Of a stretch of DNA of 64,000 nucleotides, positions 1-62,353 are shown piece by piece; position 1 is the first letter of the stretch, and every line of letters starts with the position of its first letter. The stretch is from a virus (taxonomy: Duplodnaviria > Heunggongvirae > Uroviricota > Caudoviricetes). Location of the stretch: IMG/VR virus record IMGVR_UViG_2778261667_000017; one strand, written 5' to 3'. The notes below the pieces were generated by a model. That model was given only the letters and a program-made list of their open reading frames with translations, had not been told where the DNA came from and did not search any database. Both the position numbers and the translations under genes were made by a program.

Positions 1-1128
1 TCACAACGCTACTTTGATCCATCCTTTGCCTCGATCGTCATGATAACGATCGGTTTGCTGTTGTGTTTTATGACCAAGTAGTTTTTGTGTATCTAACCCC
101 TGTTCTTTGTACAGACGTTCAGATAAAGACCTTTGTTCATGGAATGTGGCAGGTGAACCTTCCCCCCAATCAATTCCTGCTAGATCCCTCGCTTTACTGA
201 AATTCATCGTCAATGTATTGGATTTAACCTGCGCGCCACGTTCGGCCTGTGAAGTAGTACGGAAAAAATGTACTAAGTATGGGCTGACTGCGTAGTCACG
301 GCAGCGGGCTACTACATCGCGTAAACTCCAGTTAATCGCGTTGAGACGAAGAGAAAGAGGAATTGCGATTTTGCTCCCGGTCTTTTCCTGAATGATATGG
401 AGATGATCATCCCAAATATCGCTAAATTTCATACGCGAGATATCACCTAACCTCTGACCGGTAACCAGTGCTAACAGCATGGCATTCCCCATATAACGAT
501 GACTGGCATCTGCGATATCAAAGATTTTTTGCCATTCTTCAAGGCTTAACCGTTGTCGGGTAATTTTTCTTCTGGGCTGTTTGGTCGCTAATGCTGGATT
601 ATAGCCAGGAGGGACCTCCCCATAGTGTTGTGCCTCCTTGAATACATCAATTAGAACGGAGCGGACTACTTGCGCCATCCTCGGTTGCCCAGCAGTGATA
701 TACTCGTCAAGCAATTGTGCTATATCCCTTACATCAACGGATGAAATTAACTTCATTCCTGCTCGTTCCCTGAGCAAGGATACTGGTTTGGCTTTCTGTT
801 TATAGGTGTTGAGCTTTATATCGCCACTTTTCAGTCTGTCATCCTGGATTGCTTGATAGCGATCTAACCAGGTTGACGTTGTGATTGCTTTTCCTTTGCT
901 GGTTGCGATCCTGTCACTGATAGCCAGAATCTGCCGGGTTCTTTGCTCAGCCAGGCGTGTATTGGCCTCAGTGGCAATAGCAATGGCTTCAGCTTCGTTT
1001 GCGCCCAAAGAATGAAACTTCCCGGTCACTGGATGCTTATATCGCCAATAGACTTTATTTACTTTTCTGCTATAGAGCGGATACAAGTTCGGGACTGAGA
1101 CATTATTTTTACGTGGTCTGGCTGCCAT
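1..1128 (-). CDS. int: Tyrosine integrase (e14 IntE-like), 375 aa
   Basis: 375-aa ORF; lambdoid integrase N-terminus and C-terminal catalytic region (HxxR...Y); sits at prophage end with xis upstream. Confidence 0.9.
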   Translation of the reverse strand: MAARPRKNNVSVPNLYPLYSRKVNKVYWRYKHPVTGKFHSLGANEAEAIAIATEANTRLAEQRTRQILAISDRIATSKGKAITTSTWLDRYQAIQDDRLKSGDIKLNTYKQKAKPVSLLRERAGMKLISSVDVRDIAQLLDEYITAGQPRMAQVVRSVLIDVFKEAQHYGEVPPGYNPALATKQPRRKITRQRLSLEEWQKIFDIADASHRYMGNAMLLALVTGQRLGDISRMKFSDIWDDHLHIIQEKTGSKIAIPLSLRLNAINWSLRDVVARCRDYAVSPYLVHFFRTTSQAERGAQVKSNTLTMNFSKARDLAGIDWGEGSPATFHEQRSLSERLYKEQGLDTQKLLGHKTQQQTDRYHDDRGKGWIKVAL

Positions 1129-3794: not shown

Positions 3795-4229
3795 ATGTCC
3801 GGTAATATCTATACGCTGTACAAATCCCACTGTGAAAATGTTGGAAAGTATCGGGGCATTGAAATCAGTGGGGTAGTGTCATCAGTCGAAATAAGCAAAG
3901 TTGAATCAAGGGCAACATTACTTACTCTTCTGGACCTTGTCTTACATGAGCACCGGAAGAAATTCGGCACTCCCTATAATCAGTTGAATGGGAAAAAGGC
4001 TCTGGTTCACCTTATTCTGATGAAGCATCACTGGATGCCAAAACAGATTAATGAGATGAAATTTGATGAACTTCTTCTTTCAATTCAGGATGAACTCACA
4101 CTTGATAAAATAAGCGTAACCGCCCAGAAATTTTTAGATTATCGAGACTGGAGATCACAAATTCATCACTTTGATGATTTTGACGAAAATGAATGGGATC
4201 CTAATTTGTCTGCACAATATCTAAAGTAA
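3795..4229 (+). CDS. Hypothetical protein, 144 aa
   Basis: ORF with AAGGA-type RBS about 8 nt upstream; protein-like composition; no recognisable family. Confidence 0.6.
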   Translation: MSGNIYTLYKSHCENVGKYRGIEISGVVSSVEISKVESRATLLTLLDLVLHEHRKKFGTPYNQLNGKKALVHLILMKHHWMPKQINEMKFDELLLSIQDELTLDKISVTAQKFLDYRDWRSQIHHFDDFDENEWDPNLSAQYLK

Positions 4230-4407
4230 CATCCTGTGATAAAACCGTGATTTCCTGATCCAGTTTTTTTAAGGAGTCTATTGTTTTCTGTCGATAAGAC
4301 AGCACTTCACGAAGCTGGTTTATAGCTGCCAGCTTCTTTGCCATCCACTCGTAAATTTCCTCATTTGTGTATCCGGGCGCGACGATTTTTGGTTCTGTTT
4401 TGTGCAT
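4201..4407 (-). CDS. Hypothetical small protein, 68 aa, predicted helical
   Basis: ATG preceded by GAGGAGG at 6-nt spacing; convergent with the 144-aa gene, 3' ends overlap by 29 nt. Confidence 0.55.
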   Translation of the reverse strand: MHKTEPKIVAPGYTNEEIYEWMAKKLAAINQLREVLSYRQKTIDSLKKLDQEITVLSQDVTLDIVQTN

Positions 4408-12167: not shown

Positions 12168-12524
12168 ATGCGTGATATGTATGAAGTATTGGACCGCTGG
12201 GGAGCATGGGCTGCAGCAGAAAATAGTGGTGTGGACTGGCAGCCGATAGCGGCTGGTTTCAAGGGACTTTTACCACACGGTAAAAAGTCACGTCTCCAGT
12301 GTGATGATGATGAAGGCATCATGATAGACGGTTGTGTGGCTCGGTTGCGAAAGTATAAACCAGAGGAATATGAGCTGCTCATAGCTCACTTTGTTATTGG
12401 TATCTCATTACGCACTATTGCCAAGAAGAGAAGATGTTCAGATGGCACAATTAGGAAGGAATTGCAGACTGCCATGGGGTTTGTTGACGGCTGTTTAGCA
12501 ATGTTAGCTTATAGTATGGCATAA
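12168..12524 (+). CDS. Q: Late-gene antiterminator Q, 118 aa
   Basis: Paralogous to the second Q at 52486-52863 (shared MRDxxxVLxRWGAWAA, CxxC pairs). Confidence 0.8.
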   Translation: MRDMYEVLDRWGAWAAAENSGVDWQPIAAGFKGLLPHGKKSRLQCDDDEGIMIDGCVARLRKYKPEEYELLIAHFVIGISLRTIAKKRRCSDGTIRKELQTAMGFVDGCLAMLAYSMA

Positions 12525-13718
12525 AAAATAAAATAGATTTACTGCCGATTTTTCAAAAAAGACTGGGAACTGTTTATATCCAACGTAAATAAGGCCTCCA
12601 TAAAACATGGCTGATGCGAGATATTTAACAGTTCTCATCCTTTTTTTAGCTTTATCAATCAAACCTGTAATGCTACTCTTAATACTATCTGCATTATCTT
12701 TGATTTCTTTATTTTCTTCAAACTTTAAATACTTATCGAAAGCGGACTCCACTCGAGAACGTAAGTTGTCGAATGTTTCATTGAATATCTCAATAGAAAT
12801 GTAATTGACTTTTTTTATCATCCAAAGTCCTGCGATAATCAATATTGCTTCGGTTGTTTCATTAGCCTTCACTAAGCCACCAGCTGCTATTAATGCACCG
12901 GGAATAGTCAATGCTTTTGTCTGATTAGATGATATGAATTCGTTAATTTTACTCGTGAACTCAAGATTTTTCTCATCGAGTTCGTTAAGAATTTTATTTA
13001 CAGAAAACCTCTTTGTGTAAATCTCATATAGTTCATCATATTTTTTTCTGACGAGTTCAGTAGAGTTAAGCAAGTCAAAGAAATTGAATGTACCATTTGC
13101 TTTAAATACTTCGTTTATGGCTGAACGTATAACGAGCTTGCGCTCGCTTTTGTGTAAATCATTGATTTTTATTGTGTCGAGAAGCTCCTTTATAATTTCA
13201 TATTTAAGAGACGAGTTCGATAAGCGATTAATCTCGCTATATTGTAAAAAATGCGTGAGTTCGACTGTATAACTTTTGTCTTCATTGGTGAAAAATAAGA
13301 CAGAGCAGTCACTGTTATGATGATCAGCAATTAATGAAAGGATATCTTTCCACATAAAGAAAATATGGATTTTTTCGATGCTTTCATTCTTAGAAGTAGG
13401 GAGTATTAACGGCGTTCCGATGATATAATTTTTCGGAAGAGCGTTTTGGGTGTTTACTCTAGACCAAAAAGACTCAACATTCTCATAAATTATAGCGTCA
13501 TCCCAAGATGAAGCTTGGCGATCTAGCCAAATTTCATTATTTTCGATGCAGTTTGTTGCCTTTTTATAACCTATAGATTGTAACAGTCTAATTATTTCAG
13601 AACTATTTACAATAACAATGCTTTCTTCAAGACTTATGACAGTGTAGTAGCCCTCAACTCTGCTTGAGGCTCCGTTAATAATCTGCGCTAATCTTGATAA
13701 GTCATCAGCAATTGTCAT
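12504..13718 (-). CDS. Hypothetical protein with C-terminal transmembrane helices, 404 aa (candidate effector)
   Basis: AT-rich; soluble N-domain then predicted TM segments ALTIPGALIAAGGLV, AILIIAGLWMI, YLASAMFYGGLIYVGY; 3' end overlaps Q by 21 bp. Confidence 0.75.
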   Translation of the reverse strand: MTIADDLSRLAQIINGASSRVEGYYTVISLEESIVIVNSSEIIRLLQSIGYKKATNCIENNEIWLDRQASSWDDAIIYENVESFWSRVNTQNALPKNYIIGTPLILPTSKNESIEKIHIFFMWKDILSLIADHHNSDCSVLFFTNEDKSYTVELTHFLQYSEINRLSNSSLKYEIIKELLDTIKINDLHKSERKLVIRSAINEVFKANGTFNFFDLLNSTELVRKKYDELYEIYTKRFSVNKILNELDEKNLEFTSKINEFISSNQTKALTIPGALIAAGGLVKANETTEAILIIAGLWMIKKVNYISIEIFNETFDNLRSRVESAFDKYLKFEENKEIKDNADSIKSSITGLIDKAKKRMRTVKYLASAMFYGGLIYVGYKQFPVFFEKSAVNLFYFLCHTIS

Positions 13719-13720
13719 TA

Positions 13721-14896
13721 TTAGCTGTCTCTATATCTTTTGAGTTCATCATAATTTGCCTGACTCAATTTTATCACAATTTCGCATTTGTTGTCAGTGA
13801 GAATTACAGGCTTATTTGACTTTTCGTCTCCAATAGCTCCACGCATTATTTTCAACTTAAAATTATTGTCGTTATCTGCCACTTCAATTGTAAGCGCGCT
13901 TTCAGCTGCTTTAGGAGTTGGTTCAAATTGAGGATCAATCTGGAAACCATTAAGATTAACAAAATCGACAAACGTTCCCTTACATTTGTGTGAATCAGTC
14001 AGGCATGAGTCAATTATTTTTGAAATATCCTCTATCTTAACGGACTTATTTCCGTATTTATCTTTTGATTTTTTTTCCAGTAAGGATTTAACTTCATTGT
14101 CAATAGTATCACGCAGTACACGACCGAGTGAGTTTTTACTAGCAAAAATATCTATAGCACTGAATAATTGCTGAATGCTTCTTTTATTGTCCGAATCATG
14201 TCGGCAACCTAATGAGTCTTTGAAAAAATCGCTTTTAGATTTACCTTGCAAGAAATGTACATATGAGTCACCCTTGTTTTCTGGATAACTGGCTTCGAAT
14301 AAAGTTAAATCGAACATCGCAGCCTGCCGTAAGGCATCGGTATTAATTGGATTTAATCTTGTTGGGGTCAACTTATCCGAATCAAAGTCATAGGCGCTTT
14401 GTTTATCAACCATTACGATTAGAAGTTTTCCCAAATCCTCTGGTTCGGTAGACTTATAGTGGATGAAAACAACGCTCCCCCCCTGAAGTTGGGCAACTCT
14501 CGATTCGTTATTAGCATTATGTTTAAGCTTCTCTATTATAGCTCTAGATAAATCAATGAATTCATTATTTTTATTAATGTATTTTTTTAGGATCGTAGGA
14601 ATGGATGAAGGGTTGTGATCTGAGTCTAGGAAGTTATGAAATTTGTTTTTTCGGCTAAATTTTTTCTCAATTCTGGTTATGAATTCAGATGTGACTTCAT
14701 TTTTTAGATCCCAAACTTCACCTAATCGATAATCAAATGCTCTTGAATCATTTTTTTCAAGATTTGCTGTTACAGCACCAATAGGAAAGTACGATTGTTT
14801 GCCCAGCACTACAACATGAGGCGTGGCGCCGCATTTATCGCAAGCTACAGTTGGGTCGTCAAGAACATTGCCACATTCTAAACAAGTTATATCCAT
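13721..14896 (-). CDS. Zinc-ribbon + NdpA/YejK-like nucleoid-associated-protein-family protein, 391 aa (candidate sensor)
   Basis: N-terminal CLECG-x12-CDKCG zinc ribbon; GGSVVFIHY...MFDLTLFE...YVHFLQGKSKSDFF align to the remembered YejK core; AT-rich. Confidence 0.75.
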   Translation of the reverse strand: MDITCLECGNVLDDPTVACDKCGATPHVVVLGKQSYFPIGAVTANLEKNDSRAFDYRLGEVWDLKNEVTSEFITRIEKKFSRKNKFHNFLDSDHNPSSIPTILKKYINKNNEFIDLSRAIIEKLKHNANNESRVAQLQGGSVVFIHYKSTEPEDLGKLLIVMVDKQSAYDFDSDKLTPTRLNPINTDALRQAAMFDLTLFEASYPENKGDSYVHFLQGKSKSDFFKDSLGCRHDSDNKRSIQQLFSAIDIFASKNSLGRVLRDTIDNEVKSLLEKKSKDKYGNKSVKIEDISKIIDSCLTDSHKCKGTFVDFVNLNGFQIDPQFEPTPKAAESALTIEVADNDNNFKLKIMRGAIGDEKSNKPVILTDNKCEIVIKLSQANYDELKRYRDS

Positions 14897-28126: not shown

Positions 28127-29959
28127 ATGGCTGAATTTGAGCTTAAGGCGTTGATCACCGGTGTCGACAGGCTTTCTCCCGCGCTGTCGAAAATGCAAAA
28201 GAAAATCCGGGGATTTAAACGCCAGGCGGAAGAAGCGTCACAGGGTGGGCTGGCGCTTGGTGGCGGACTGGCTGCGGGTCTGACGCTTTCCCTGAAATCT
28301 TATGCCGATCAGGAAAACGCCGCCACCGGGCTGAAAGTTGCCATGATGGATGCGAACGGTGAGGTCGGAAAGAGCTTTCAGGACATCAATAAACTGGCTA
28401 TTGGTCTGGGTAACCAGCTACCCGGTACAACGGCTGATTTCCAGAACATGATGCAGATGCTGGTGCGTCAGGGGATCCCGGCAGAAAACATTCTGGGCGG
28501 TGTGGGTAAAGCGACAGCTTATCTTGCGGTACAACTGAAAAAAACACCGGAAGCGGCTGCCGAGTTTGCCGCAAAGATGCAGGATGCTACCGGAACGGCG
28601 TCAGAAGACATGATGGGGCTGTTCGACACTATCCAGAAGGCGTTTTATCTGGGCGTTGACGATACCAACATGTTGTCCTTCTTCACTAAAACCAGCTCTG
28701 TTCTGAAGATGGTGAACAAGGACGGTCTTCAGGCTGCACAGAGCCTTGCCCCCATCAGCGTCATGATGGATCAGATGGGGATGAACGGGGAATCGGCAGG
28801 TAACGCCCTGCGAAAAGTTATCCAGTCCGGATTAAGCGTTAAGAAAATCAGGGACGTCAATAAAATCATGGCCCGCCAGAAACTCGGGGTACAGCTCGAT
28901 TTTACTGACGGCAAAGGGAGTTTTGGCGGTCTTGATAACATGTTCAGGCAACTGGCAAAGCTGCGAAAACTGACCGACGTTAAGCGAACAGGTGTACTTA
29001 AGGCAATATTTGGTGATGATGCCGAAACCCTTCAGGTGGTCAATGCACTAATCGATAAAGGAAAGGATGGCTACGATCAGATCCAGCAGAAGATGAATAA
29101 ACAGGCCAGCCTGAATAAACGTGTGCAGGCACAGCTTGGTACGCTGTCCAACCTGTGGGAGGCAATGACAGGGACCGCAACTAACGGCCTTGCGGCTATT
29201 GGCGGCGCATTTTCTGGTGACGCTAAAAATATCACGCAATGGCTGGGGGAGTTGGGGGAGAAATTCACGAAGTTTGCGGATGAAAATCCCCGGGTTATTC
29301 GCGGCGTCGTCGGGCTTGCTGCCGGTCTTGCGATTCTGAAACTGGGATTGATGGGCGTTGGCGGTGCCATCAGTATTGTCAGCAGGATCATGTCGATGAC
29401 GCCGATTGGCATGATTGCGACGGCGATAGCCCTGGCTGCGGGATTAATTATCACTAACTGGGATGTTGTCGGACCTTATTTTAAGAAACTCTGGGAAACC
29501 ATTGGTCCTTATTTTGAGGCTGGCTGGGAACTCCTTAAGAAAGTTTTTGCCTGGTCGCCGCTGGGGATGGTGATCAATAACTGGGGGCCGGTTGTTAAGT
29601 GGTTTCAGGATATGTGGGACAAGCTGAAGCCAATTATTGAGTGGTTTACCGACAGTTCCGGTGACACGGACGATGCCATTAACTCTGCGCAGTGGGGCGC
29701 GGGTGCTTATGATGCTTATGGGACGGGAATACCGGCGCGGGGATACACACCTTATCAGGCGGTAGATCCGGCTCAGTCAAACAACGCCTCCGATGCCACA
29801 GGCCCGAATCCCTTCATGATCAACAAAGCTTCTGCGCCAAAAGTTGATGGTGAGATCAAGGTCTCTTTTGTGAATTCGCCTCCGGGTATGCGGGTTACGG
29901 AAACACGTTCCAGTGGCATTGATATTAATCACGATGTTGGGTACACCAGATTTAGGTAA
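28127..29959 (+). CDS. Tail tape measure protein, 610 aa
   Basis: Long helical protein with Gly/Ala-rich segments in canonical position. Confidence 0.9.
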   Translation: MAEFELKALITGVDRLSPALSKMQKKIRGFKRQAEEASQGGLALGGGLAAGLTLSLKSYADQENAATGLKVAMMDANGEVGKSFQDINKLAIGLGNQLPGTTADFQNMMQMLVRQGIPAENILGGVGKATAYLAVQLKKTPEAAAEFAAKMQDATGTASEDMMGLFDTIQKAFYLGVDDTNMLSFFTKTSSVLKMVNKDGLQAAQSLAPISVMMDQMGMNGESAGNALRKVIQSGLSVKKIRDVNKIMARQKLGVQLDFTDGKGSFGGLDNMFRQLAKLRKLTDVKRTGVLKAIFGDDAETLQVVNALIDKGKDGYDQIQQKMNKQASLNKRVQAQLGTLSNLWEAMTGTATNGLAAIGGAFSGDAKNITQWLGELGEKFTKFADENPRVIRGVVGLAAGLAILKLGLMGVGGAISIVSRIMSMTPIGMIATAIALAAGLIITNWDVVGPYFKKLWETIGPYFEAGWELLKKVFAWSPLGMVINNWGPVVKWFQDMWDKLKPIIEWFTDSSGDTDDAINSAQWGAGAYDAYGTGIPARGYTPYQAVDPAQSNNASDATGPNPFMINKASAPKVDGEIKVSFVNSPPGMRVTETRSSGIDINHDVGYTRFR

Positions 29960-29966
29960 AGACGAA

Positions 29967-29988
29967 CAGGGAGGGCCGCCCCTCCCTG
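29967..29988. terminator. Strong GC hairpin between convergent genes
   Basis: cagggaggg-ccgc-ccctccctg; no clear T-run on either side. Confidence 0.4.
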
Positions 29989-29991
29989 AAC

Positions 29992-30438
29992 TTACTGTGC
30001 GAACACGCAATTTCGGCCTGATGGGGAGCCGACAATTCTGGACATTTTTTCGCAAATAATAGTTACCTGTTCTCCTTTTTTAAGAGCAGCAGCTGTTGAT
30101 TTTTCAGAGTCTTGCATCTCCATTCTTGCTGGCATGAATTCATTTTCAGTTCTGAATTTAATAATTATAGAGTCAGTAAAGTCCTTATCAATGGATTGTA
30201 CGATACCTCTAACGGCGATTAATTTACCTTTTAACTGTTCATCGGTAGCGACTTCATTTTCTTCATACTCTTTAAACAGCTGTCGAGCAGTAGTGTTGTA
30301 GATTTCTTTTTGCGGTGCCGCAGCTTCCGTATCGGATGAGTATGAAGAATTAGAGCCTTTATCGTTATTGCCTGCAAAATATCCAATAATCACCAACCCG
30401 ATGAAAATATATAAAATCCATTTTAATAATTTCTTCAT
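29992..30438 (-). CDS. Membrane-anchored hypothetical protein with possible OB-fold domain, 148 aa (reverse-strand moron)
   Basis: N-terminal TM anchor (KKLLKWILYIFIGLVIIGYFAG); AT-rich; antisense within tail operon. Confidence 0.7.
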   Translation of the reverse strand: MKKLLKWILYIFIGLVIIGYFAGNNDKGSNSSYSSDTEAAAPQKEIYNTTARQLFKEYEENEVATDEQLKGKLIAVRGIVQSIDKDFTDSIIIKFRTENEFMPARMEMQDSEKSTAAALKKGEQVTIICEKMSRIVGSPSGRNCVFAQ

Positions 30439-30500
30439 GTTATCACCTTAATGCTAATAATTTATATGGTTACAAATGGTAATGGCTACCACTACAAATT

Positions 30501-31877
30501 ATGGCATTACCAGTAAATATTACTACTGATAATAAATATGGGAGTTATATGACGTGGAAAGACAGACTTCAGGACGCGTCATTTCGCGGTGTGTCGTTTA
30601 AGGTTGAAGAAGAAAGTGCGGGAACCGGCCGTCGTGTGGAAACACACGAATACCCGAACCGCGACAAACCCTATACCGAAGACCTGGGGAAAATCACTTT
30701 CCGCCCGTCCATCACGGCTTATGTGGTGGGAGATGACTGCTTTGACCAGCGCGATCGCCTGATTGACGCGCTGAATAAACCCGGTCCCGGCACGCTTGTC
30801 CATCCGACATACGGTGAACTGAAAGTCTGTGTTGACGGGGAAGTTCGGGTCAGCACATCGAAAAGTGAAGGACGTATTGTCCGCTTTGACCTGAAGTTTG
30901 TCGAAGCAGGAGAGCTCTCTTACCCCACATCAGGTGCGGCGACGGCGCAGACGCTGATGTCATCCTGTTCTGCACTGGATGACTGCATCAGTGACAGCTT
31001 CAGCGGTTTCAGTATCGATGGCGTGGCGGATTTTGTGCAGAACGACGTCGTTGGTAATGTCAGCACAATGCTTGGGTATGTTTCTGATGCGATGAAAGTG
31101 GTGGATTCTGCCGTATCGGATGCGGCCAGGCTGTTGCAGGGGGATATCTCGGTACTTCTGCCGCCACCATCGTCAGGCAAAAATTTCGTTGAGCAGGTGC
31201 AGAAAATGTGGCGTACCGGGAAACGCCTTTATGGTAACGCCAGCGACCTGGTCACCATGATCAAAACGCTTTCCGGTGTCAGCCTCGGCAGCGATCTGCA
31301 ACCGCGCGGCGTCTGGAAAACGGACAGTAAAACCACCGCCACGGCTACGCAGCAGCGTAACGTGGTTGCCAGCACCCTTCGTACGACCGCAATCAGCGAA
31401 GCGGCGTATGCCGTCACCCGATTGCCTGCGCCAACAACTTCCTCGGTGATGCAGAATGCCGCAGTGGGGCAGGCAACAACACCTGCGCAGAGCACTGGCT
31501 GGCCTTCCGTCACGCATCCGGCACTGAACAATGCACCGGCGGTGAAAAACACAGTTGACCTGCCGACGTGGGAAGAACTGACTGACATTCGCGACACACT
31601 GAATACGGCAATTGATAAGGAGTTGTCCCGTACAACCAGTGATGCGCTGTTTCTGGCGCTGCGCCGGGTGAAAGCAGATCTGAATGCGGATATCAACACG
31701 CGCCTTGAACAGTCTGCACGGATCATTCAGCGCACGCCGGATGAGGTTTTACCCGCGTTGGTGCTGGCGGCGACCTGGTTTGATAACGCGGCGCGTGACG
31801 CGGACATTATCCGGCGTAATGCCATTACGCATCCCGGCTTTGTGCCGGTGATCCCTCTGAAGGTGCCAGTGCAATGA
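30501..31877 (+). CDS. DNA circulation protein (Mu gp43-like), 458 aa
   Basis: Mu-like tail order; size. Confidence 0.8.
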   Translation: MALPVNITTDNKYGSYMTWKDRLQDASFRGVSFKVEEESAGTGRRVETHEYPNRDKPYTEDLGKITFRPSITAYVVGDDCFDQRDRLIDALNKPGPGTLVHPTYGELKVCVDGEVRVSTSKSEGRIVRFDLKFVEAGELSYPTSGAATAQTLMSSCSALDDCISDSFSGFSIDGVADFVQNDVVGNVSTMLGYVSDAMKVVDSAVSDAARLLQGDISVLLPPPSSGKNFVEQVQKMWRTGKRLYGNASDLVTMIKTLSGVSLGSDLQPRGVWKTDSKTTATATQQRNVVASTLRTTAISEAAYAVTRLPAPTTSSVMQNAAVGQATTPAQSTGWPSVTHPALNNAPAVKNTVDLPTWEELTDIRDTLNTAIDKELSRTTSDALFLALRRVKADLNADINTRLEQSARIIQRTPDEVLPALVLAATWFDNAARDADIIRRNAITHPGFVPVIPLKVPVQ

Positions 31878-37250: not shown

Positions 37251-37771
37251 TATGCAGCCCTCACGATATAGTTAAATGCAATATTTCGTGGACGGGTTTC
37301 ACTCCCGCCAGTATTACCGATACTCCCTCGTGAATGAAGTGTCGGTGATGGGATCAGAGTTCCGCCTGCACTGGTAGCATCCAGCCCCTTGCCCTGTGTA
37401 TATGTATTTCGGAAGATTGTTGCCAGCTCCCATTCCTCTTTTGAATCATGCCCATCGTTAGCTACAACAAAATGACGGTGCTTTTCCAGCATTCCGGCCT
37501 GAATACTCAATAAAACACGTCCTGCATCAATACCGCGCCCGTCATCCCAGCCACGAATAAACTCACCGCGTAAATCAGGTAATTTATTTGTTGGATAAGC
37601 CTTTGCCAGTTCCGGGTATTCTTCAGCAGAAAATGCCGCACCGTTGCATTTCAGCCAGCCTGTTGGCGGTGTGACTGAAGACCATGGAACAGGCACACCA
37701 ACAGGTAATGCAGAGCCTTCTCCCAAACCAACGTTTATGAAAATGCAGAAATAACGAGCAAATGGCATCAT
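37250..37771 (-). CDS. Alternate tail-fibre variable C-terminal segment (fused to stf N-terminus after inversion)
   Basis: Tail-fibre C-terminal sequence; crossover site within its first codons. Confidence 0.7.
   Translation of the reverse strand: MMPFARYFCIFINVGLGEGSALPVGVPVPWSSVTPPTGWLKCNGAAFSAEEYPELAKAYPTNKLPDLRGEFIRGWDDGRGIDAGRVLLSIQAGMLEKHRHFVVANDGHDSKEEWELATIFRNTYTQGKGLDATSAGGTLIPSPTLHSRGSIGNTGGSETRPRNIAFNYIVRAA
37717..37736. repeat. Right inverted repeat of invertible segment (pix/gix-like site)
   Basis: cttctcccaaaccaacgttt; resembles remembered gix consensus; adjacent to pin. Confidence 0.75.
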
Positions 37772-37797
37772 TCCTGCTTTTGTCAGGGGGATCTACC

Positions 37798-38352
37798 ATG
37801 CTTATTGGCTATGTACGCGTATCAACAAATGACCAGAACACAGATCTACAACGTAATGCGCTGAACTGTGCAGGATGCGAGCTGATTTTTGAAGACAAGA
37901 TAAGCGGTACAAAGTCCGAAAGGCCGGGACTGAAAAAACTGCTCAGGACATTATCGGCAGGTGACACGCTGGTGGTCTGGAAACTGGACCGGCTGGGGCG
38001 CAGTATGCGGCATCTTGTCGTGCTGGTGGAGGAGTTGCGCGAACGAGGCATCAACTTTCGTAGTCTGACGGATTCAATTGATACCAGTACCCCAATGGGG
38101 CGCTTTTTCTTTCATGTGATGGGTGCCCTGGCTGAAATGGAGCGTGAACTGATTGTTGAAAGAACAAAAGCTGGACTGGAAGCTGCTCGCGCACAGGGAC
38201 GAATTGGTGGACGTCGTCCCAAACTTACACCAGAACAATGGGAACAGGCCGGACGATTAATTGCATCAGGAGTTCCTCGCCAGAAGGTGGCGATTATCTA
38301 TGATGTTGGTGTGTCAACTTTGTATAAGAGGTTTCCTGCAGGGGATAAATAA
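37798..38352 (+). CDS. pin: Serine DNA invertase Pin (e14 type), 184 aa
   Basis: Near-identical to remembered e14 Pin (MLIGYVRVSTNDQNTDLQRNAL...). Confidence 0.95.
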   Translation: MLIGYVRVSTNDQNTDLQRNALNCAGCELIFEDKISGTKSERPGLKKLLRTLSAGDTLVVWKLDRLGRSMRHLVVLVEELRERGINFRSLTDSIDTSTPMGRFFFHVMGALAEMERELIVERTKAGLEAARAQGRIGGRRPKLTPEQWEQAGRLIASGVPRQKVAIIYDVGVSTLYKRFPAGDK

Positions 38353-38458
38353 AGTTAAAGACACTTTGTGTACAAAAGAAAGTAAAACAACAGCAACTTG
38401 TTGCAATTTTATCAATAAAAGTAGTATTGTCGTGAAAAATTGATTAAAGATTAATATT

Positions 38459-39292
38459 ATGCATGTTTTTGATAATAATGGAATTGAACTGAAAGCTGAG
38501 TGTTCGATAGGTGAAGAGGATGGTGTTTATGGTCTAATCCTTGAGTCGTGGGGGCCGGGTGACAGAAACAAAGATTACAATATCGCTCTTGATTATATCA
38601 TTGAACGGTTGGTTGATTCTGGTGTATCCCAAGTCGTAGTATATCTGGCGTCATCATCAGTCAGAAAACATATGCATTCTTTGGATGAAAGAAAAATCCA
38701 TCCTGGTGAATATTTTACTTTGATTGGTAATAGCCCCCGCGAGATACGCTTGAAGATGTGTGGTTATCAGGCTTATTTTAGTCGTACGGGGAGAAAGGAA
38801 ATTCCTTCCGGCAATAGAACGAAACGAATATTGATAAATGTTCCAGGTATTTATAGTGACAGTTTTTGGGCGTCTATAATACGTGGAGAACTATCAGAGC
38901 TTTCACAGCCTACAGATGATGAATCGCTTCTGAATATGAGGGTTAGTAAATTAATTAAGAAAACGTTGGGTCAACCCGAGGGCTCCAGGAAACCAGTTGA
39001 GGTAGAAAGACTACAAAAAGTTTATGTCCGAGACCCGATGGTAAAAGCTTGGATTTTACAGCAAAGTAAAGGTATATGTGAAAACTGTGGTAAAAATGCT
39101 CCGTTTTATTTAAATGATGGAAACCCATATTTGGAAGTGCATCATGTAATTCCCCTGTCTTCAGGTGGTGCTGATACAACAGATAACTGTGTTGCCCTTT
39201 GTCCGAATTGTCATAGAGAATTGCACTATAGTAAAAATGCAAAAGAACTAATCGAGATGCTTTACGTTAATATAAACCGATTACAGAAATAA
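38459..39292 (+). CDS. mcrA: McrA type IV (modified-cytosine) restriction endonuclease, HNH, 277 aa
   Basis: Near-identical to remembered e14 McrA; C-terminal HNH (CENCGKNAP...HHVIPLSSGG...CPNCH). Confidence 0.95.
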   Translation: MHVFDNNGIELKAECSIGEEDGVYGLILESWGPGDRNKDYNIALDYIIERLVDSGVSQVVVYLASSSVRKHMHSLDERKIHPGEYFTLIGNSPREIRLKMCGYQAYFSRTGRKEIPSGNRTKRILINVPGIYSDSFWASIIRGELSELSQPTDDESLLNMRVSKLIKKTLGQPEGSRKPVEVERLQKVYVRDPMVKAWILQQSKGICENCGKNAPFYLNDGNPYLEVHHVIPLSSGGADTTDNCVALCPNCHRELHYSKNAKELIEMLYVNINRLQK

Positions 39293-39803: not shown

Positions 39804-40946
39804 CTATGCTGTTTTGATATCTACGATAATCCAGTCTTTACCACGATCATCATTGTATCGGTCGGTCATTTTTCTGGATTTATGACCTAACAACTTTTGC
39901 GTATCCAGACCCTGTTCCCGATATAACCGTTCTGACAGAGATCGCTGCTCATGAAATGTGGGCGCAGTTCCTTGCTCCCATTTTATGCCACATTTTTCCC
40001 TGGCCTTTTTAAAAGCCGTTGTAAGAGTATTTGCAGACACCTGGTCTCCTCTGTTTGCTTGAGAGGTAGTGTGACGGTAATGGACCAGATATTTACTAAC
40101 AACAGCATCCCTGCACTGAGATATAACTTCACGAAGGGTAATATTCAGAGCATCGCATTTCAGGTTAAGCGGAATAGCAAGTTTTGAACCGGTTTTTTCC
40201 TGAGTAATGTGCAACATGTCGTCCCAGATATCAGAGAATTTCAAATTGCAGATATCGCCTAAACGTTGTCCAGTGACAAGAGCAAGTAGCATCCCGCATT
40301 TTAAATAGGGCTGCCGTCTGCTTACGCTGTCAAATATTGCCTGCCATTCGGGCAGTGATAATCTTTGGCGGTTTACTCGATTTCGCGGTTGTTTTGTTGC
40401 CTGCGCTGGGTTAAATCCTGGCGGAACATGTCCGGCGTGTTGTGCTTCTTTGAAGACGTCGATCAACACCATTCTCACGACTTGCGCCATCCTGTTATGA
40501 CCTTCAGCCTTTACAGCATCAATTATTTCGGCAATATCAAGTGCGGTAATATCCTTGAGGTGTTGCATTCCACAATGCTCACGGAAAAGACGAATGGGTT
40601 TGCCTTTTTGCCGATAGGAGTTGGGTCTTAGTTCATTATGTTGCAGCCTGTCCTCCTGGATAGAAATATATTTATCAAGCCATTCTGTCACCGTAATGTC
40701 TGAGCGCCTGCCTTTCATTCTTTCCAGACGCTCATTGACGCTTAATATTTGTCGGGTACGTTGTTCAGCAATAATGGTATTTGCTTCAGTAGCAACTTGT
40801 TTTGCTTCATTCTCATCAGTTCCTAAGCTATGAAAACGACCGGATAGTGGATGTTTGTATTGCCAATATACCTTTCCGGTTCGCTTATCTAATTTGCAAT
40901 ATAAATTGGGTATAGAGATTTTGTGAGATCGGGGGCTAGCAGCCAT
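39804..40946 (-). CDS. int: Tyrosine integrase of prophage 2, 380 aa
   Basis: Paralogous to integrase at 1-1128; adjacent to icd fragment and xis. Confidence 0.9.
   Translation of the reverse strand: MAASPRSHKISIPNLYCKLDKRTGKVYWQYKHPLSGRFHSLGTDENEAKQVATEANTIIAEQRTRQILSVNERLERMKGRRSDITVTEWLDKYISIQEDRLQHNELRPNSYRQKGKPIRLFREHCGMQHLKDITALDIAEIIDAVKAEGHNRMAQVVRMVLIDVFKEAQHAGHVPPGFNPAQATKQPRNRVNRQRLSLPEWQAIFDSVSRRQPYLKCGMLLALVTGQRLGDICNLKFSDIWDDMLHITQEKTGSKLAIPLNLKCDALNITLREVISQCRDAVVSKYLVHYRHTTSQANRGDQVSANTLTTAFKKAREKCGIKWEQGTAPTFHEQRSLSERLYREQGLDTQKLLGHKSRKMTDRYNDDRGKDWIIVDIKTA

Positions 40947-58646: not shown

Positions 58647-58672
<26 letters not shown>
58127..58672 (+). CDS. Nu1: Terminase small subunit Nu1, 181 aa
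   Basis: Near-identity to remembered lambda Nu1. Confidence 0.95.

Positions 58673-62353
<3,681 letters not shown>

What the first reader, a model, noticed from the sequence alone, without database searches (positions are those of the whole stretch)
29992..30438. Reverse-strand membrane-anchored gene embedded between tape measure and DNA circulation genes
A 148-aa minus-strand gene with an N-terminal transmembrane anchor and a small soluble domain (possibly OB-fold-like) is inserted antisense within the otherwise co-directional tail operon. It is AT-rich and is bounded on the tape-measure side by a strong GC hairpin (29967-29988). Genes like this in tail-module gaps are often lysogenic-conversion or superinfection-exclusion factors.
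Basis: partly seen in the sequence, partly recalled or inferred. Interest (0 to 1): 0.5.

Follow-up and report, generated by a model that had tools for sequence, protein, structure and literature searches.

The report
Prophage moron encoding Sie2009-like exclusion protein
A small, self-contained accessory gene wedged backwards into the tail genes of an E. coli prophage encodes a membrane-tethered OB-fold protein related to Sie2009, a lactococcal phage protein known to stop rival phages injecting DNA; it is a fairly ordinary "moron", and its own function has not been tested.

Summary
A 148-aa minus-strand ORF (29992-30438, 37% GC against 52-56% in its neighbours) lies between the tape measure gene and the DNA-circulation gene of an SfV-like, Mu-type-tail E. 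coli prophage. A GC hairpin at 29967-29988 sits 3 nt past its stop codon.

It is a classic moron. A roughly 580-bp cassette replaces the 46-nt intergenic spacer of phages SfV, SfI and SfII. It carries a conserved extended -10 promoter, a Shine-Dalgarno site and a hairpin. It is present in 79 of 5,426 complete E. coli genomes, while about 1,100 carry the tail region. Other cargo can occupy the same slot.

The key new result is homology to Sie2009 of Lactococcus phage Tuc2009, the prototype blocker of DNA injection. Both proteins best-match PHROG 8545 and both pass the PF12869 cut-off; hhalign gives 97.9% probability. In 39 of 58 other viral loci the homologue lies within 3 kb downstream of the prophage repressor on the same strand, and immediately downstream in 13, the arrangement Sie2009 has.

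The most likely function is therefore prophage-expressed exclusion at the inner membrane. That function and its target are inferred, not shown. I rate it a new member of a known kind, of moderate interest.

The parts
29960..30540 (-). Inserted moron cassette (about 580 bp, GC 0.372). It replaces the 46-nt TMP-to-DNA-circulation spacer, which in SfV-type phages carries a plus-strand terminator.
   Evidence: Alignment with SfV; SfV, SfI and SfII lack it; GC.
29992..30438 (-). CDS, 148 aa: a Sie2009-family (PF12869 / PHROG 8545) membrane-anchored OB-fold protein. RefSeq names the near-identical (99.4% at the DNA level) copy in strain 82.0311 WP_000734912.1 'OB-fold protein'.
   Evidence: dN/dS < 0.1.
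30370..30435 (-). Codons 2-23 (KKLLKWILYIFIGLVIIGYFAG): N-terminal signal-anchor transmembrane helix. There is no lipobox and no good signal peptidase I site.
   Evidence: Hydropathy; AlphaFold2 helix 2-22; positive-inside charge bias across homologues.
30307..30369 (-). Codons 24-44: Ser/Asn-rich disordered linker.
   Evidence: pLDDT below 50 for residues 25-39; length and sequence vary among homologues.
29995..30306 (-). Codons 45-148: OB-fold domain, pI 5.2, with invariant Cys129 and Cys144 and the conserved motifs YxxNEVAxD, VQSIDKDF and NEFMPA.
29967..29988 (-). GC-rich hairpin 3 nt past the stop codon and 7 nt past the TMP stop. It is a terminator-like 3' end for the moron transcript.
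   Evidence: the stem is conserved in allele B and in the L035-type allele.
30442..30448 (-). Shine-Dalgarno AGGTGAT, 3 nt upstream of the ATG; invariant in all four aligned upstream regions (three distinct allele types).
30498..30525 (-). Predicted sigma-70 promoter with an extended -10: TAGTAA, 16-nt spacer, TGc CATAAT. It ends 59 nt upstream of the ATG. The TGnxATAA core is conserved across diverged alleles in an otherwise variable spacer.
   Evidence: Prediction only; the consensus scan did not pick it up because the -35 element is weak.
28127..29959 (+). Left flank: tape measure protein, 610 aa. Hydrophobic segments lie at about residues 390-449. The C-terminal ~110 aa form a mosaic block that travels with the moron allele.
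30550..31877 (+). Right flank: DNA circulation protein (Mu gp43/N-like), 442 aa from the conserved start codon.

Best explanation
This is a moron: an autonomous promoter-gene-hairpin unit inserted antisense between the tape measure gene and the DNA-circulation gene of an SfV-like temperate myovirus. It is probably transcribed from the repressed prophage, independently of the late tail operon.

Its product is a Gram-negative member of the Sie2009 family (Pfam PF12869 OB fold, PHROG 8545). An uncleaved N-terminal signal-anchor would hold it in the inner membrane with the N terminus inside and the C terminus outside. A flexible linker of about 21 residues would keep a compact, acidic OB-fold domain within a few nanometres of the periplasmic face of that membrane. 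Two invariant cysteines may stabilise the domain through a disulfide.

By analogy with Sie2009, which blocks DNA injection, the OB domain would interfere with the step at which an incoming phage's genome-delivery conduit engages or crosses the cytoplasmic membrane. Phages would still adsorb, but their DNA would not reach the cytoplasm, and this would protect the lysogen and its prophage.

The target is unknown. Two observations favour a conserved or heterologous target over a strictly self-type tape measure protein: the binding-surface motifs are conserved across phages of very different hosts, and SfV-like prophages are not depleted in genomes that carry the gene.

Shown here: the gene, its presence/absence polymorphism, purifying selection, the fold, family membership, the conserved regulatory motifs, and repressor linkage of homologues.

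Inferred: expression during lysogeny, topology, the exclusion function and the step affected.
For: Moron anatomy:
- The cassette is absent from the otherwise 97-98% identical phages SfV, SfI and SfII.
- It is present in 79 of 5,426 complete E. coli genomes. In every full-coverage hit listed it lies next to the DNA-circularisation gene. About 1,100 genomes hold the tail region.
- GC is 0.37 against 0.52-0.56 in the flanks.
- The extended -10 element, the Shine-Dalgarno site and the post-stop hairpin are conserved in alleles that are only about 72% identical.
- Alternative cargo occupies the same slot.

A real, selected gene: dN/dS is 0.04-0.10.

Fold and architecture:
- PF12869, E 1.7e-19.
- AlphaFold2 pLDDT 86.8.

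Periplasmic orientation:
- The N-terminal flank averages +2.5 charge and the C-terminal flank 0.0. The N flank is the more positive in 105 of 121 homologues.
- Four homologues have a lipobox in place of the transmembrane helix.
- Six have a cytoplasmic-type Cys4 zinc ribbon before the transmembrane helix.
- 128 of 132 have exactly two Cys in the OB domain.
- A Bordetella phage homologue has a signal-peptide-like N terminus.
- The domain pI is 5.2.

Link to a characterised exclusion protein:
- Tuc2009 Sie2009 scores 1.7e-79 on PHROG 8545, and the window protein scores 2.2e-49 on the same PHROG.
- Sie2009 passes the PF12869 cut-off.
- hhalign of the family profile against Sie2009 gives 97.9% probability, E 3.3e-13, over 133 columns, with the same transmembrane helix, Ser/Thr linker and OB layout.

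Lysogeny linkage in relatives, among 58 other IMG/VR loci:
- 11 lie 20-37 nt downstream of a 186-type CI repressor on the same strand.
- 2 lie immediately downstream of an S24 (LexA-like) repressor; in one of them the called ORF overlaps the repressor's stop codon.
- 26 lie in P2-like phages downstream of the C-type repressor on the same strand; in Burkholderia phage Carl1 an annotated terminator follows.
- Sie2009 itself lies directly downstream of the Tuc2009 repressor.

Precedent for membrane-bound exclusion proteins acting on the injection conduit or tape measure protein: T4 Imm (bioRxiv 10.64898/2026.03.06.709160), and P22 SieA, HK97 gp15 and TP-J34 Ltp (PMC10883804, PMC3952083).
Against: - No experiment on this protein or on any Gram-negative family member was found in six literature searches.
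- Homology to Sie2009 is remote: 27% identity in the profile alignment, and pairwise BLASTP finds only 47 residues. The two hosts have different cell envelopes, so function may not transfer.
- PF12869 is very large (3,691 clusters at 50% identity with E <= 1e-3). Many members are chromosomal and of unknown role, for example the Pantoea copy in a non-prophage island.
- This copy is not in the lysogeny module.
- Its promoter is only predicted, and the consensus scan did not call it.
- PADLOC has no model that matches it.
- The gene has decayed repeatedly: a 143-bp deletion removes the promoter and the first 14 codons in the E. coli 042 lineage, and IS1 insertions disrupt it elsewhere.
- 5 of the 25 best-matching carrier genomes also hold a second SfV-like tail locus. 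Two genomes hold two copies of the cassette. There is therefore no sign of self-type exclusion.
Confidence: 0.55

Rival explanations
1. Self-type exclusion aimed at the tape measure protein. The OB domain would bind the C-terminal, post-transmembrane domain of SfV-type tape measure proteins as they insert into the inner membrane, much as T4 Imm binds its TMP. Each moron allele would be matched to the TMP C-terminus encoded next to it.
For: - Allele B (about 71% identical) is found in 7 genomes, always with a TMP that is 98-100% identical over residues 1-500 but only 50-70% identical over the last ~110 residues. Together they form a single recombination block.
- A more distant phage lineage (TMP 70-72%, sheath 73-74%, OB protein 72% identical) keeps the gene in the same slot.
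- Another phage (L056) has a homologue antisense next to its TMP gene.
- TMP is the target of T4 Imm and TP-J34 Ltp, and it determines escape from HK97 gp15 (bioRxiv 10.64898/2026.03.06.709160; PMC10883804).
Against: - Physical linkage alone explains the co-transfer, and no independent recombinants exist to test co-variation.
- The allele-A-type TMP C-terminus occurs hundreds of times with an empty slot or with other cargo.
- Differences between alleles A and B are scattered and conservative, with no hypervariable patch, and omega is below 0.1.
- Most family members lie next to repressors, not TMP genes.
- Carrier genomes are not depleted of second SfV-like prophages.
- Sie2009 itself acts mainly on heterologous phages (PMC7693887).
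Confidence: 0.15
2. A lysogenic-conversion or envelope-protection factor unrelated to phage entry. A periplasmic, membrane-tethered binding domain could neutralise a periplasm-acting toxin (colicin, tailocin or T6SS effector), or alter envelope stress or host-interaction properties, in the way lambda Bor or membrane-anchored colicin immunity proteins do.
For: - A small periplasm-facing tethered domain with a conserved Cys pair is also the typical layout of immunity proteins (own knowledge).
- The Pantoea homologue lies in a chromosomal island beside a WapI-type immunity gene and is not in a recognisable prophage.
- The wider PF12869 family is large and mostly uncharacterised.
Against: - The only characterised member of the same PHROG is an exclusion protein.
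- Association with prophage repressor operons is strong (39 of 58 loci).
- No toxin partner gene is in the cassette.
Confidence: 0.2
3. An AbiP/PdpSau-like abortive-infection sensor. The protein would be membrane-anchored with a cytoplasmic OB fold that binds phage nucleic acid and triggers membrane depolarisation.
For: Membrane-anchored OB-fold prophage proteins of this kind exist: S. aureus PdpSau and lactococcal AbiP (PMC10127798). The best PDB matches after 3F1Z are nucleic-acid-binding OB folds.
Against: - Charge bias, lipobox and signal-peptide variants, and zinc ribbon-before-helix variants all place the OB domain outside the cytoplasm.
- The domain is acidic (pI 5.2), whereas the PdpSau and AbiP domains are positively charged.
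- The conserved Cys pair fits an oxidising compartment.
- PADLOC models, which include Abi systems, give no hit.
Confidence: 0.03
4. A hitch-hiking or decaying passenger with no current function in this prophage.
For: It is absent from viable relatives such as SfV and has been lost repeatedly through deletion or IS1 insertion.
Against: Strong purifying selection. The ORF is intact, with conserved promoter, Shine-Dalgarno and hairpin motifs across alleles. The slot is retained in a tail module that has diverged by about 28%.
Confidence: 0.05

Closest known systems
Sie2009 (orf2) of Lactococcus phage Tuc2009 and its identical copy SieLC3: the prototype lactococcal superinfection exclusion protein
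   Same: - Same PHROG (8545) and same Pfam family (PF12869); profile-profile probability 97.9%.
- Same layout: basic N terminus, single transmembrane helix, Ser/Thr-rich linker, then an OB domain of about 100 aa starting with the Y..N..A.D..(Y)KGK motif.
- Both are prophage-encoded accessory genes.
- Most proteobacterial relatives share Sie2009's position directly downstream of the repressor.
   Different: - About 27% identity, and only in profile alignment.
- Gram-positive host; Sie2009 has no Cys pair.
- The window copy is antisense in the tail module next to the TMP gene, not in the lysogeny module.
- Sie2009's block of DNA injection is experimental (PMC7693887, PMC4155818). Nothing has been tested for the E. 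coli protein.
PDB 3F1Z, 'putative nucleic acid-binding lipoprotein' of Klebsiella pneumoniae (PF12869)
   Different: 17-20% identity. It is named a lipoprotein, not a helix-anchored protein. It is a structural-genomics entry with no assigned function, and the 'nucleic acid-binding' label is a fold-based guess.
HK97 gp15 moron (superinfection exclusion)
   Same: A moron in the tail gene cluster next to the tape measure gene. It encodes a small, predicted inner-membrane protein made by the prophage that blocks DNA entry, and escape depends on the tail tube and TMP genes (as summarised in PMC10883804; location from own knowledge).
   Different: No sequence or fold relationship was detected, and no shared family appeared in the Pfam or PHROG scans. 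To my knowledge gp15 has no OB domain. The original paper was not available to read.
T4 Imm, P22 SieA and TP-J34 Ltp (membrane-bound proteins that block genome injection)
   Same: They work in the way proposed here. They are membrane-tethered or membrane-embedded proteins that act at the cytoplasmic membrane on the phage DNA-delivery conduit: Imm binds the TMP post-transmembrane domain, SieA acts on ejection proteins, and Ltp acts on TMP (bioRxiv 10.64898/2026.03.06.709160; PMC10883804; PMC3952083). One metagenomic viral protein named 'Host cell surface-exposed lipoprotein', which to my knowledge is the Pfam name of the Ltp family, was a Foldseek hit to the model (BFVD rank 4). Whether it combines an Ltp-type domain with an OB domain was not examined.
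   Different: Unrelated folds: Imm and SieA are polytopic helical proteins, and Ltp is a lipoprotein with helix-turn-helix-like repeats. There is no sequence homology to the window protein.
AbiP and PdpSau (membrane-anchored OB-fold abortive-infection proteins)
   Same: N-terminal membrane helix plus an OB-like domain; PdpSau is a prophage accessory gene; both have an anti-phage role (PMC10127798).
   Different: Their OB domain is cytoplasmic, positively charged and binds nucleic acid, and they abort infection after DNA entry. Here the domain is acidic and predicted to be periplasmic.

Membership tests
Pfam PF12869 (tRNA_anti-like OB fold) | HMM score above the curated gathering cut-off | tested here: met
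   70.2 bits against 23.5, E 1.7e-19, residues 2-130.
Pfam PF12869 (tRNA_anti-like OB fold) | OB-fold beta-barrel resembling the family's solved structure | tested here: met
Sie2009-type superinfection exclusion proteins (PHROG 8545) | Sequence or profile homology to Sie2009 | tested here: met
   PHROG 8545 scores 2.2e-49 for the window protein and 1.7e-79 for Sie2009. hhalign gives 97.9% probability and E 3.3e-13. Pairwise BLASTP is only marginal.
Sie2009-type superinfection exclusion proteins (PHROG 8545) | Small protein with a hydrophobic N terminus, membrane-associated | tested here: met
   Met by prediction only: 148 aa, Kyte-Doolittle maximum 2.16, AlphaFold2 helix 2-22. Physical membrane association cannot be tested here.
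Sie2009-type superinfection exclusion proteins (PHROG 8545) | Encoded in the lysogeny module next to the repressor | tested here: not met
   The window copy lies between the TMP and DNA-circulation genes. However, 39 of 58 related viral loci do lie downstream of a repressor on the same strand.
Sie2009-type superinfection exclusion proteins (PHROG 8545) | Expressed from the prophage; blocks DNA injection without blocking adsorption | not testable with these tools
   Needs RNA-seq or 5'-RACE on lysogens, plus efficiency-of-plating, adsorption and DNA-entry assays.
Moron (autonomous accessory unit in a phage genome) | Present or absent between otherwise collinear, closely related genomes | tested here: met
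   SfV, SfI and SfII lack it at 97-98% flank identity. In a 60-record spread sample, 28 slots were empty, 4 held this gene, 14 held the SKA5-type gene and 2 held other cargo.
Moron (autonomous accessory unit in a phage genome) | Own promoter and terminator | tested here: inconclusive
   The extended -10 element, the Shine-Dalgarno site and the post-stop hairpin are conserved across alleles. The -35 element and the T-tract are weak, and no transcript data exist.
Moron (autonomous accessory unit in a phage genome) | Base composition deviating from the neighbouring genes | tested here: met
   GC 0.37 (GC3 0.34) against 0.52-0.56 (GC3 0.57-0.60).
Bacterial lipoprotein (RefSeq label 'OB-fold putative lipoprotein' on some copies) | Lipobox with an invariant Cys at the signal peptide cleavage site | tested here: not met
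   There is no Cys before residue 129. Only 4 of 134 homologues have a genuine lipobox.
AbiP/PdpSau-type membrane-anchored abortive-infection proteins | Cytoplasmic, positively charged, nucleic-acid-binding C-terminal domain | tested here: not met
   The domain has pI 5.2 and net charge -2. Charge bias and the lipobox, signal-peptide and zinc-ribbon variants indicate a periplasmic domain.
Known anti-phage defence systems (PADLOC-DB v2) | Match to any defence-system protein model | tested here: not met
   0 families at E <= 1.

The most novel reading that the evidence does not exclude
PF12869/PHROG 8545 proteins may form one ancient class of superinfection exclusion proteins, spread across bacteria and still unresolved mechanistically. 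In this reading, an OB domain tethered to the outer face of the cytoplasmic membrane binds a conserved element of the phage genome-delivery conduit, for example the post-transmembrane C-terminal domain of tape measure proteins, or a conserved host membrane co-factor.

The E. coli SfV-type copy lies beside the TMP gene and recombines as one block with the TMP C-terminus. It would then be a specificity-matched pair, and a tractable Gram-negative model for working out how Sie2009-type proteins work.
Probability: 0.15. Interest if true: 0.6.

Novelty: new member of a known kind. Interest (0 to 1): 0.4.

Why it matters
How Sie2009-type proteins stop DNA injection is, as far as I know and could find, still unknown, and they have been studied only in lactococci.

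This work shows three things. The family is an OB fold (PF12869). It is widespread as repressor-linked cargo of P2-like and 186-like prophages of Proteobacteria. An E. coli member lies in an easily manipulated SfV/e14-type prophage. Together these give a genetically tractable system for finding the target, using escape mutants, the BASEL phage panel and periplasmic interaction assays.

It also adds a candidate exclusion gene to the list used when predicting phage susceptibility of E. coli lysogens, about 1.5% of complete genomes. In itself the gene is a typical moron, and no surprise to phage biologists.

Tried and rejected
Searches with no useful result:
- PADLOC gave no hit.
- NCBIfam gave nothing meaningful.
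- The PDB sequence search gave only noise.
- Literature searches for tRNA_anti-like, PF12869, the WP accession, PHROG 8545 and 'OB-fold lipoprotein' found no functional study. PF12869 appears only as a remote match of C. difficile TcdC.
- The HK97 gp15 paper and the Mahony 2008 Sie paper are not held.

TMP co-variation: I tested whether moron alleles co-vary with the TMP. Allele B does travel with a distinct TMP C-terminal ~110 aa. With only two allele blocks and no independent recombinants, this cannot be separated from plain linkage. The apparent 'recombinant' in strain EBJ001 is an IS1 truncation.

Exclusion footprint: I looked for depletion of second SfV-like prophages in carrier genomes and found none. 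I could not locate the second cassette copy in strain 82.0311, because the search tool lists only one place per record.

Readings rejected:
- Spurious antisense ORF: ruled out by dN/dS, the Pfam match and conservation.
- Lipoprotein: there is no lipobox.
- Canonical intrinsic terminator: the T-tract is weak.
- Cytoplasmic nucleic-acid binder of the AbiP/PdpSau kind: ruled out by topology and charge.
- Late or structural tail function: the gene is antisense, absent from viable SfV, and repressor-linked in relatives.

Not run: a fused OB-TMP complex prediction. The AlphaFold model coordinates are not exposed, so the Cys129-Cys144 distance could not be measured.
Full report
**Observation.** The ORF at 29992-30438 on the minus strand is real. 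It has an ATG start, 148 codons and a TAA stop. The Shine-Dalgarno sequence AGGTGAT lies 3 nt upstream of the start codon.
- The gene lies between the 610-aa tape measure protein (TMP) gene (28127-29959) and the DNA-circulation gene, in a co-directional Mu-type tail operon: sheath, tube, chaperone, TMP, gp43/N-like, gp44/P-like, gp45, gp46, gp47.
- It is AT-rich. GC is 0.371 and GC3 0.34, against 0.518 and 0.560 for the flanking genes.
- The hairpin at 29967-29988 (9 bp, -20.4 kcal/mol, z = -3.0) begins 3 nt after the stop codon.
- One correction: the conserved start of the DNA-circulation gene is 30550 (GGAG-N6-ATG). It is not the upstream in-frame ATG at 30501, which lies within the inserted DNA.

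**It is a moron in a cargo hot spot.** The window is an SfV/e14-like E. coli prophage.
- Phages SfV, SfI and SfII match the flanks at 97-98% identity but lack about 526 bp.
- Their TMP-to-N spacer is 46 nt and carries a plus-strand terminator-like hairpin.
- Alignment places the replaced segment at about 29960-30540.
- About 1,100 of 5,426 complete E. coli genomes carry the tail region. Only 79 carry the cassette, all on the chromosome. In every full-coverage hit listed it lies beside the DNA-circularisation gene.
- In an evenly spaced sample of 60 records:

| Slot state | Records |
|---|---|
| Empty | 28 |
| Plus-strand 170-aa secreted-type protein, as in phage SKA5 | 14 |
| This gene | 4 |
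| bPH_1 domain protein | 1 |
| 225-aa hypothetical protein | 1 |
| This gene cut short by an IS1 truncation (EBJ001) | 1 |
| Matched only the DNA-circulation gene side, so the slot state was not seen | 11 |

- Upstream regions of three alleles that are only about 72% identical at the protein level share an invariant TGC-xATAA-xTT block. This reads as an extended -10 element: TGcCATAAT here at 30498-30506, TGcTATAAA in the others. They also share the Shine-Dalgarno site.
- All three alleles have a GGGAGGG/CCCTCCC hairpin with different loops just past the stop codon.
- The -35 element and the T-tract are weak, so the promoter and terminator are predictions.

**It is a selected gene that sometimes decays.** dN/dS between alleles is 0.04-0.10, with dS saturated.
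- A lineage that includes E. coli 042 has a 143-bp deletion that removes the promoter, the start codon and the first 14 codons.
- IS1 has hit the gene or truncated the prophage in other strains.

**The protein.**
- Pfam PF12869 (tRNA_anti-like OB fold) matches at 70.2 bits against a cut-off of 23.5.
- With a 32-sequence alignment, AlphaFold2 gives pLDDT 86.8: helix 2-22, a disordered linker at about 25-39, and a barrel with helices over residues 45-148.
- Several observations place the OB domain in the periplasm:
  - The N-terminal flank of the helix averages +2.5 charge against 0.0 for the C-terminal flank. The N flank is the more positive in 105 of 121 homologues.
  - Four homologues replace the helix with a lipobox.
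  - Six put a Cys4 zinc ribbon before the helix.
  - 128 of 132 have exactly two Cys in the OB domain; here these are the invariant C129 and C144.
  - A Bordetella phage homologue has a signal-peptide-like N terminus.
- The domain is acidic, with pI 5.2. That argues against nucleic-acid binding.
- This protein has no lipobox, so the RefSeq label 'putative lipoprotein' on some copies does not apply to it.

**Link to a characterised protein.**
- The top PHROG match is 8545, 'superinfection exclusion Sie-like', at 2.2e-49.
- I traced that label to orf2 of Lactococcus phage Tuc2009, which is Sie2009. The record carries the same wording.
- Sie2009 scores 1.7e-79 on PHROG 8545 and is itself a PF12869 member at 43.3 bits.
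- It aligns to the profile of the window protein's family with 97.9% probability, E 3.3e-13, over 133 columns.
- It has the same order of parts: basic N terminus, transmembrane helix, Ser/Thr linker, OB domain.
- Pairwise BLASTP is only marginal, so the relationship is remote.
[quoted passage not shown] It prevents DNA injection by heterologous lactococcal phages, and its range is broader than first thought (PMC7693887; PMC4155818).

**Context of relatives.** An IMG/VR scan returned 80 loci. Of these, 22 are the E. coli allele A or its deletion variant, in the same slot. The other 58 sort as follows:

| Context of the homologue | Loci |
|---|---|
| TMP-to-N slot: allele B, and a lineage with TMP 70-72%, sheath 73-74% and OB 72% identity | 4 |
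| 20-37 nt downstream of a 186-type CI repressor, same strand, with a divergent CII gene beyond | 11 |
| Immediately downstream of an S24 (LexA-like) repressor; in one the called ORF overlaps the repressor's stop codon | 2 |
| P2-like phages, downstream of the C-type repressor on the same strand (often after a Carl1_38-like gene) and convergent with tail gene D | 26 |
| Antisense between the tail chaperone gene and the TMP gene | 1 |
| Repressor more than 3 kb away or differently arranged | 3 |
| At a contig end, or uninformative | 11 |

- In Burkholderia phage Carl1 an annotated terminator follows the gene.
- Sie2009 likewise lies directly downstream of its repressor.
- Elsewhere, a Serratia homologue lies at a prophage end beyond the tail fibre genes. 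A Pantoea homologue lies in a chromosomal island.
- The wider family is large: 3,691 clusters at 50% identity with E <= 1e-3, and 981 at E <= 1e-10.

**Mechanism.**
- The best-supported reading is a prophage-expressed, inner-membrane-tethered periplasmic OB domain that blocks the genome entry of superinfecting phages, as Sie2009 does.
- Membrane-bound exclusion proteins that act on the DNA-delivery conduit are well documented. T4 Imm binds the domain that follows the transmembrane segment of its TMP (bioRxiv 10.64898/2026.03.06.709160). P22 SieA acts on ejection proteins. HK97 gp15 and TP-J34 Ltp are escaped through TMP changes (PMC10883804; PMC3952083).
- I tested a TMP-matching idea. Allele B, found in 7 genomes, always comes with a TMP that is identical up to about residue 500 but 50-70% identical over the last ~110 residues. 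That stretch lies beyond the hydrophobic segments at about 390-449.
- This is suggestive, but linkage explains it equally well.
- Several points count against the TMP-matching idea:
  - The A-type TMP C-terminus occurs mostly with an empty slot or other cargo.
  - Differences between the alleles are conservative.
  - 5 of the 25 best-matching carrier genomes hold a second SfV-like tail locus, and two genomes hold two cassettes.
- I therefore favour a conserved or heterologous target and leave its identity open.
- An AbiP/PdpSau-type cytoplasmic sensor (PMC10127798) is disfavoured by topology and charge.
- A role unrelated to phages, in envelope protection or toxin immunity, cannot be excluded.

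**Verdict.** The gene is a new, Gram-negative, tail-module-located member of a known kind: a Sie2009-family exclusion moron. No experiment on it was found, and its function remains inferred. Interest is moderate, at 0.4.

Noticed in passing
window 30501-30552: The mechanical ORF for the DNA-circulation gene starts at 30501, inside the inserted cassette. Homology with SfV and the RefSeq annotation both begin at the ATG at 30550, which is preceded by GGAG. The SfV-type plus-strand terminator between the TMP and N genes is absent here, and the consensus scan found no plus-strand terminator-like site in 29700-30800.
   Followed up: partly
window 29960-30540 slot; L002:1542-2054, L094:916-1293, L095:891-1568: The TMP-to-N junction of SfV-like prophages is a cargo hot spot. 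Besides the two OB-fold alleles it can hold a plus-strand 170-aa protein with a signal-peptide-like N terminus (phage SKA5; no Pfam or PADLOC hit), a 125-aa bPH_1 bacterial PH-domain protein (strain EC554), or a 225-aa hypothetical protein (strain BY63).
   Followed up: partly
window 29630-29959 (TMP residues ~500-610); L006:5700-5997: The C-terminal ~110 residues of the tape measure protein form a mosaic block. They are 50-70% identical between the allele-A and allele-B prophages, whose TMPs are otherwise 98-100% identical. SfIV-type phages have yet another TMP 3' end.
   Followed up: partly
L030-L034 (IMG/VR); E. coli 042 NC_017626.1 907752-908199; CX08/CX12; EBJ001 (L093): There are decayed copies of the gene. 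A 143-bp deletion removes the promoter and the first 14 codons, and RefSeq still calls the remaining 94-aa ORF 'OB-fold protein'. IS1 has inserted into allele B in some strains, and an IS1-mediated truncation has removed the prophage up to the gene in another.
   Followed up: partly
window 37762-39292: A Pin-like serine invertase (37762-38352) is followed by a 277-aa HNH protein. That protein matches the PADLOC type IV methyl-directed restriction enzyme model end to end (E 1.5e-201) and is McrA-like, as in the e14 element. It is a second defence-type cargo gene, at the right end of the same prophage.
   Followed up: partly
window 1-1128 and 39804-40946 onward to 64000: There are two lambda-type integrase genes, both on the minus strand. 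The first marks the left end of the SfV-like prophage. The second appears to begin another prophage arranged in tandem, which includes a long plus-strand ORF at 58647-60572, guessed from its size to be a large-terminase gene (not scanned).
   Followed up: no
window 12504-14896 (-): An antisense gene pair (404 aa with no Pfam hit, plus 391 aa of the NA37 nucleoid-associated family) lies within the early and regulatory region of the prophage. The closely related prophage of strain 82.0311 has two different minus-strand hypothetical genes between its Q-family antiterminator gene and its holin gene; whether that is the same position was not established. Neither window protein has a PADLOC hit.
   Followed up: no
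L005:3833-4624 (+), Bordetella phage vB_BaM-IFTN4 (OM293953.1): The GenBank record annotates a minus-strand ORF (3850-4326) over this stretch. The OB-fold homologue is a 263-aa plus-strand ORF with a signal-peptide-like N terminus, co-directional with the repressor gene upstream. The record is probably mis-annotated.
   Followed up: partly
L004:3061-3807 (Carl1_38) and L059-L079: In P2-like Burkholderia-type phages a conserved protein of about 250 aa with a C-terminal transmembrane segment and no Pfam family lies between the repressor gene and the OB-fold gene. It may be a two-gene partner, and the E. coli cassette lacks it.
   Followed up: no
NZ_CP122454.1 (E. coli 82.0311): The cassette query found 81 places in 79 genomes. 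At least strain 82.0311 holds two copies, which implies two co-resident prophages that both carry the gene. The second copy could not be located with the tools at hand.
   Followed up: no
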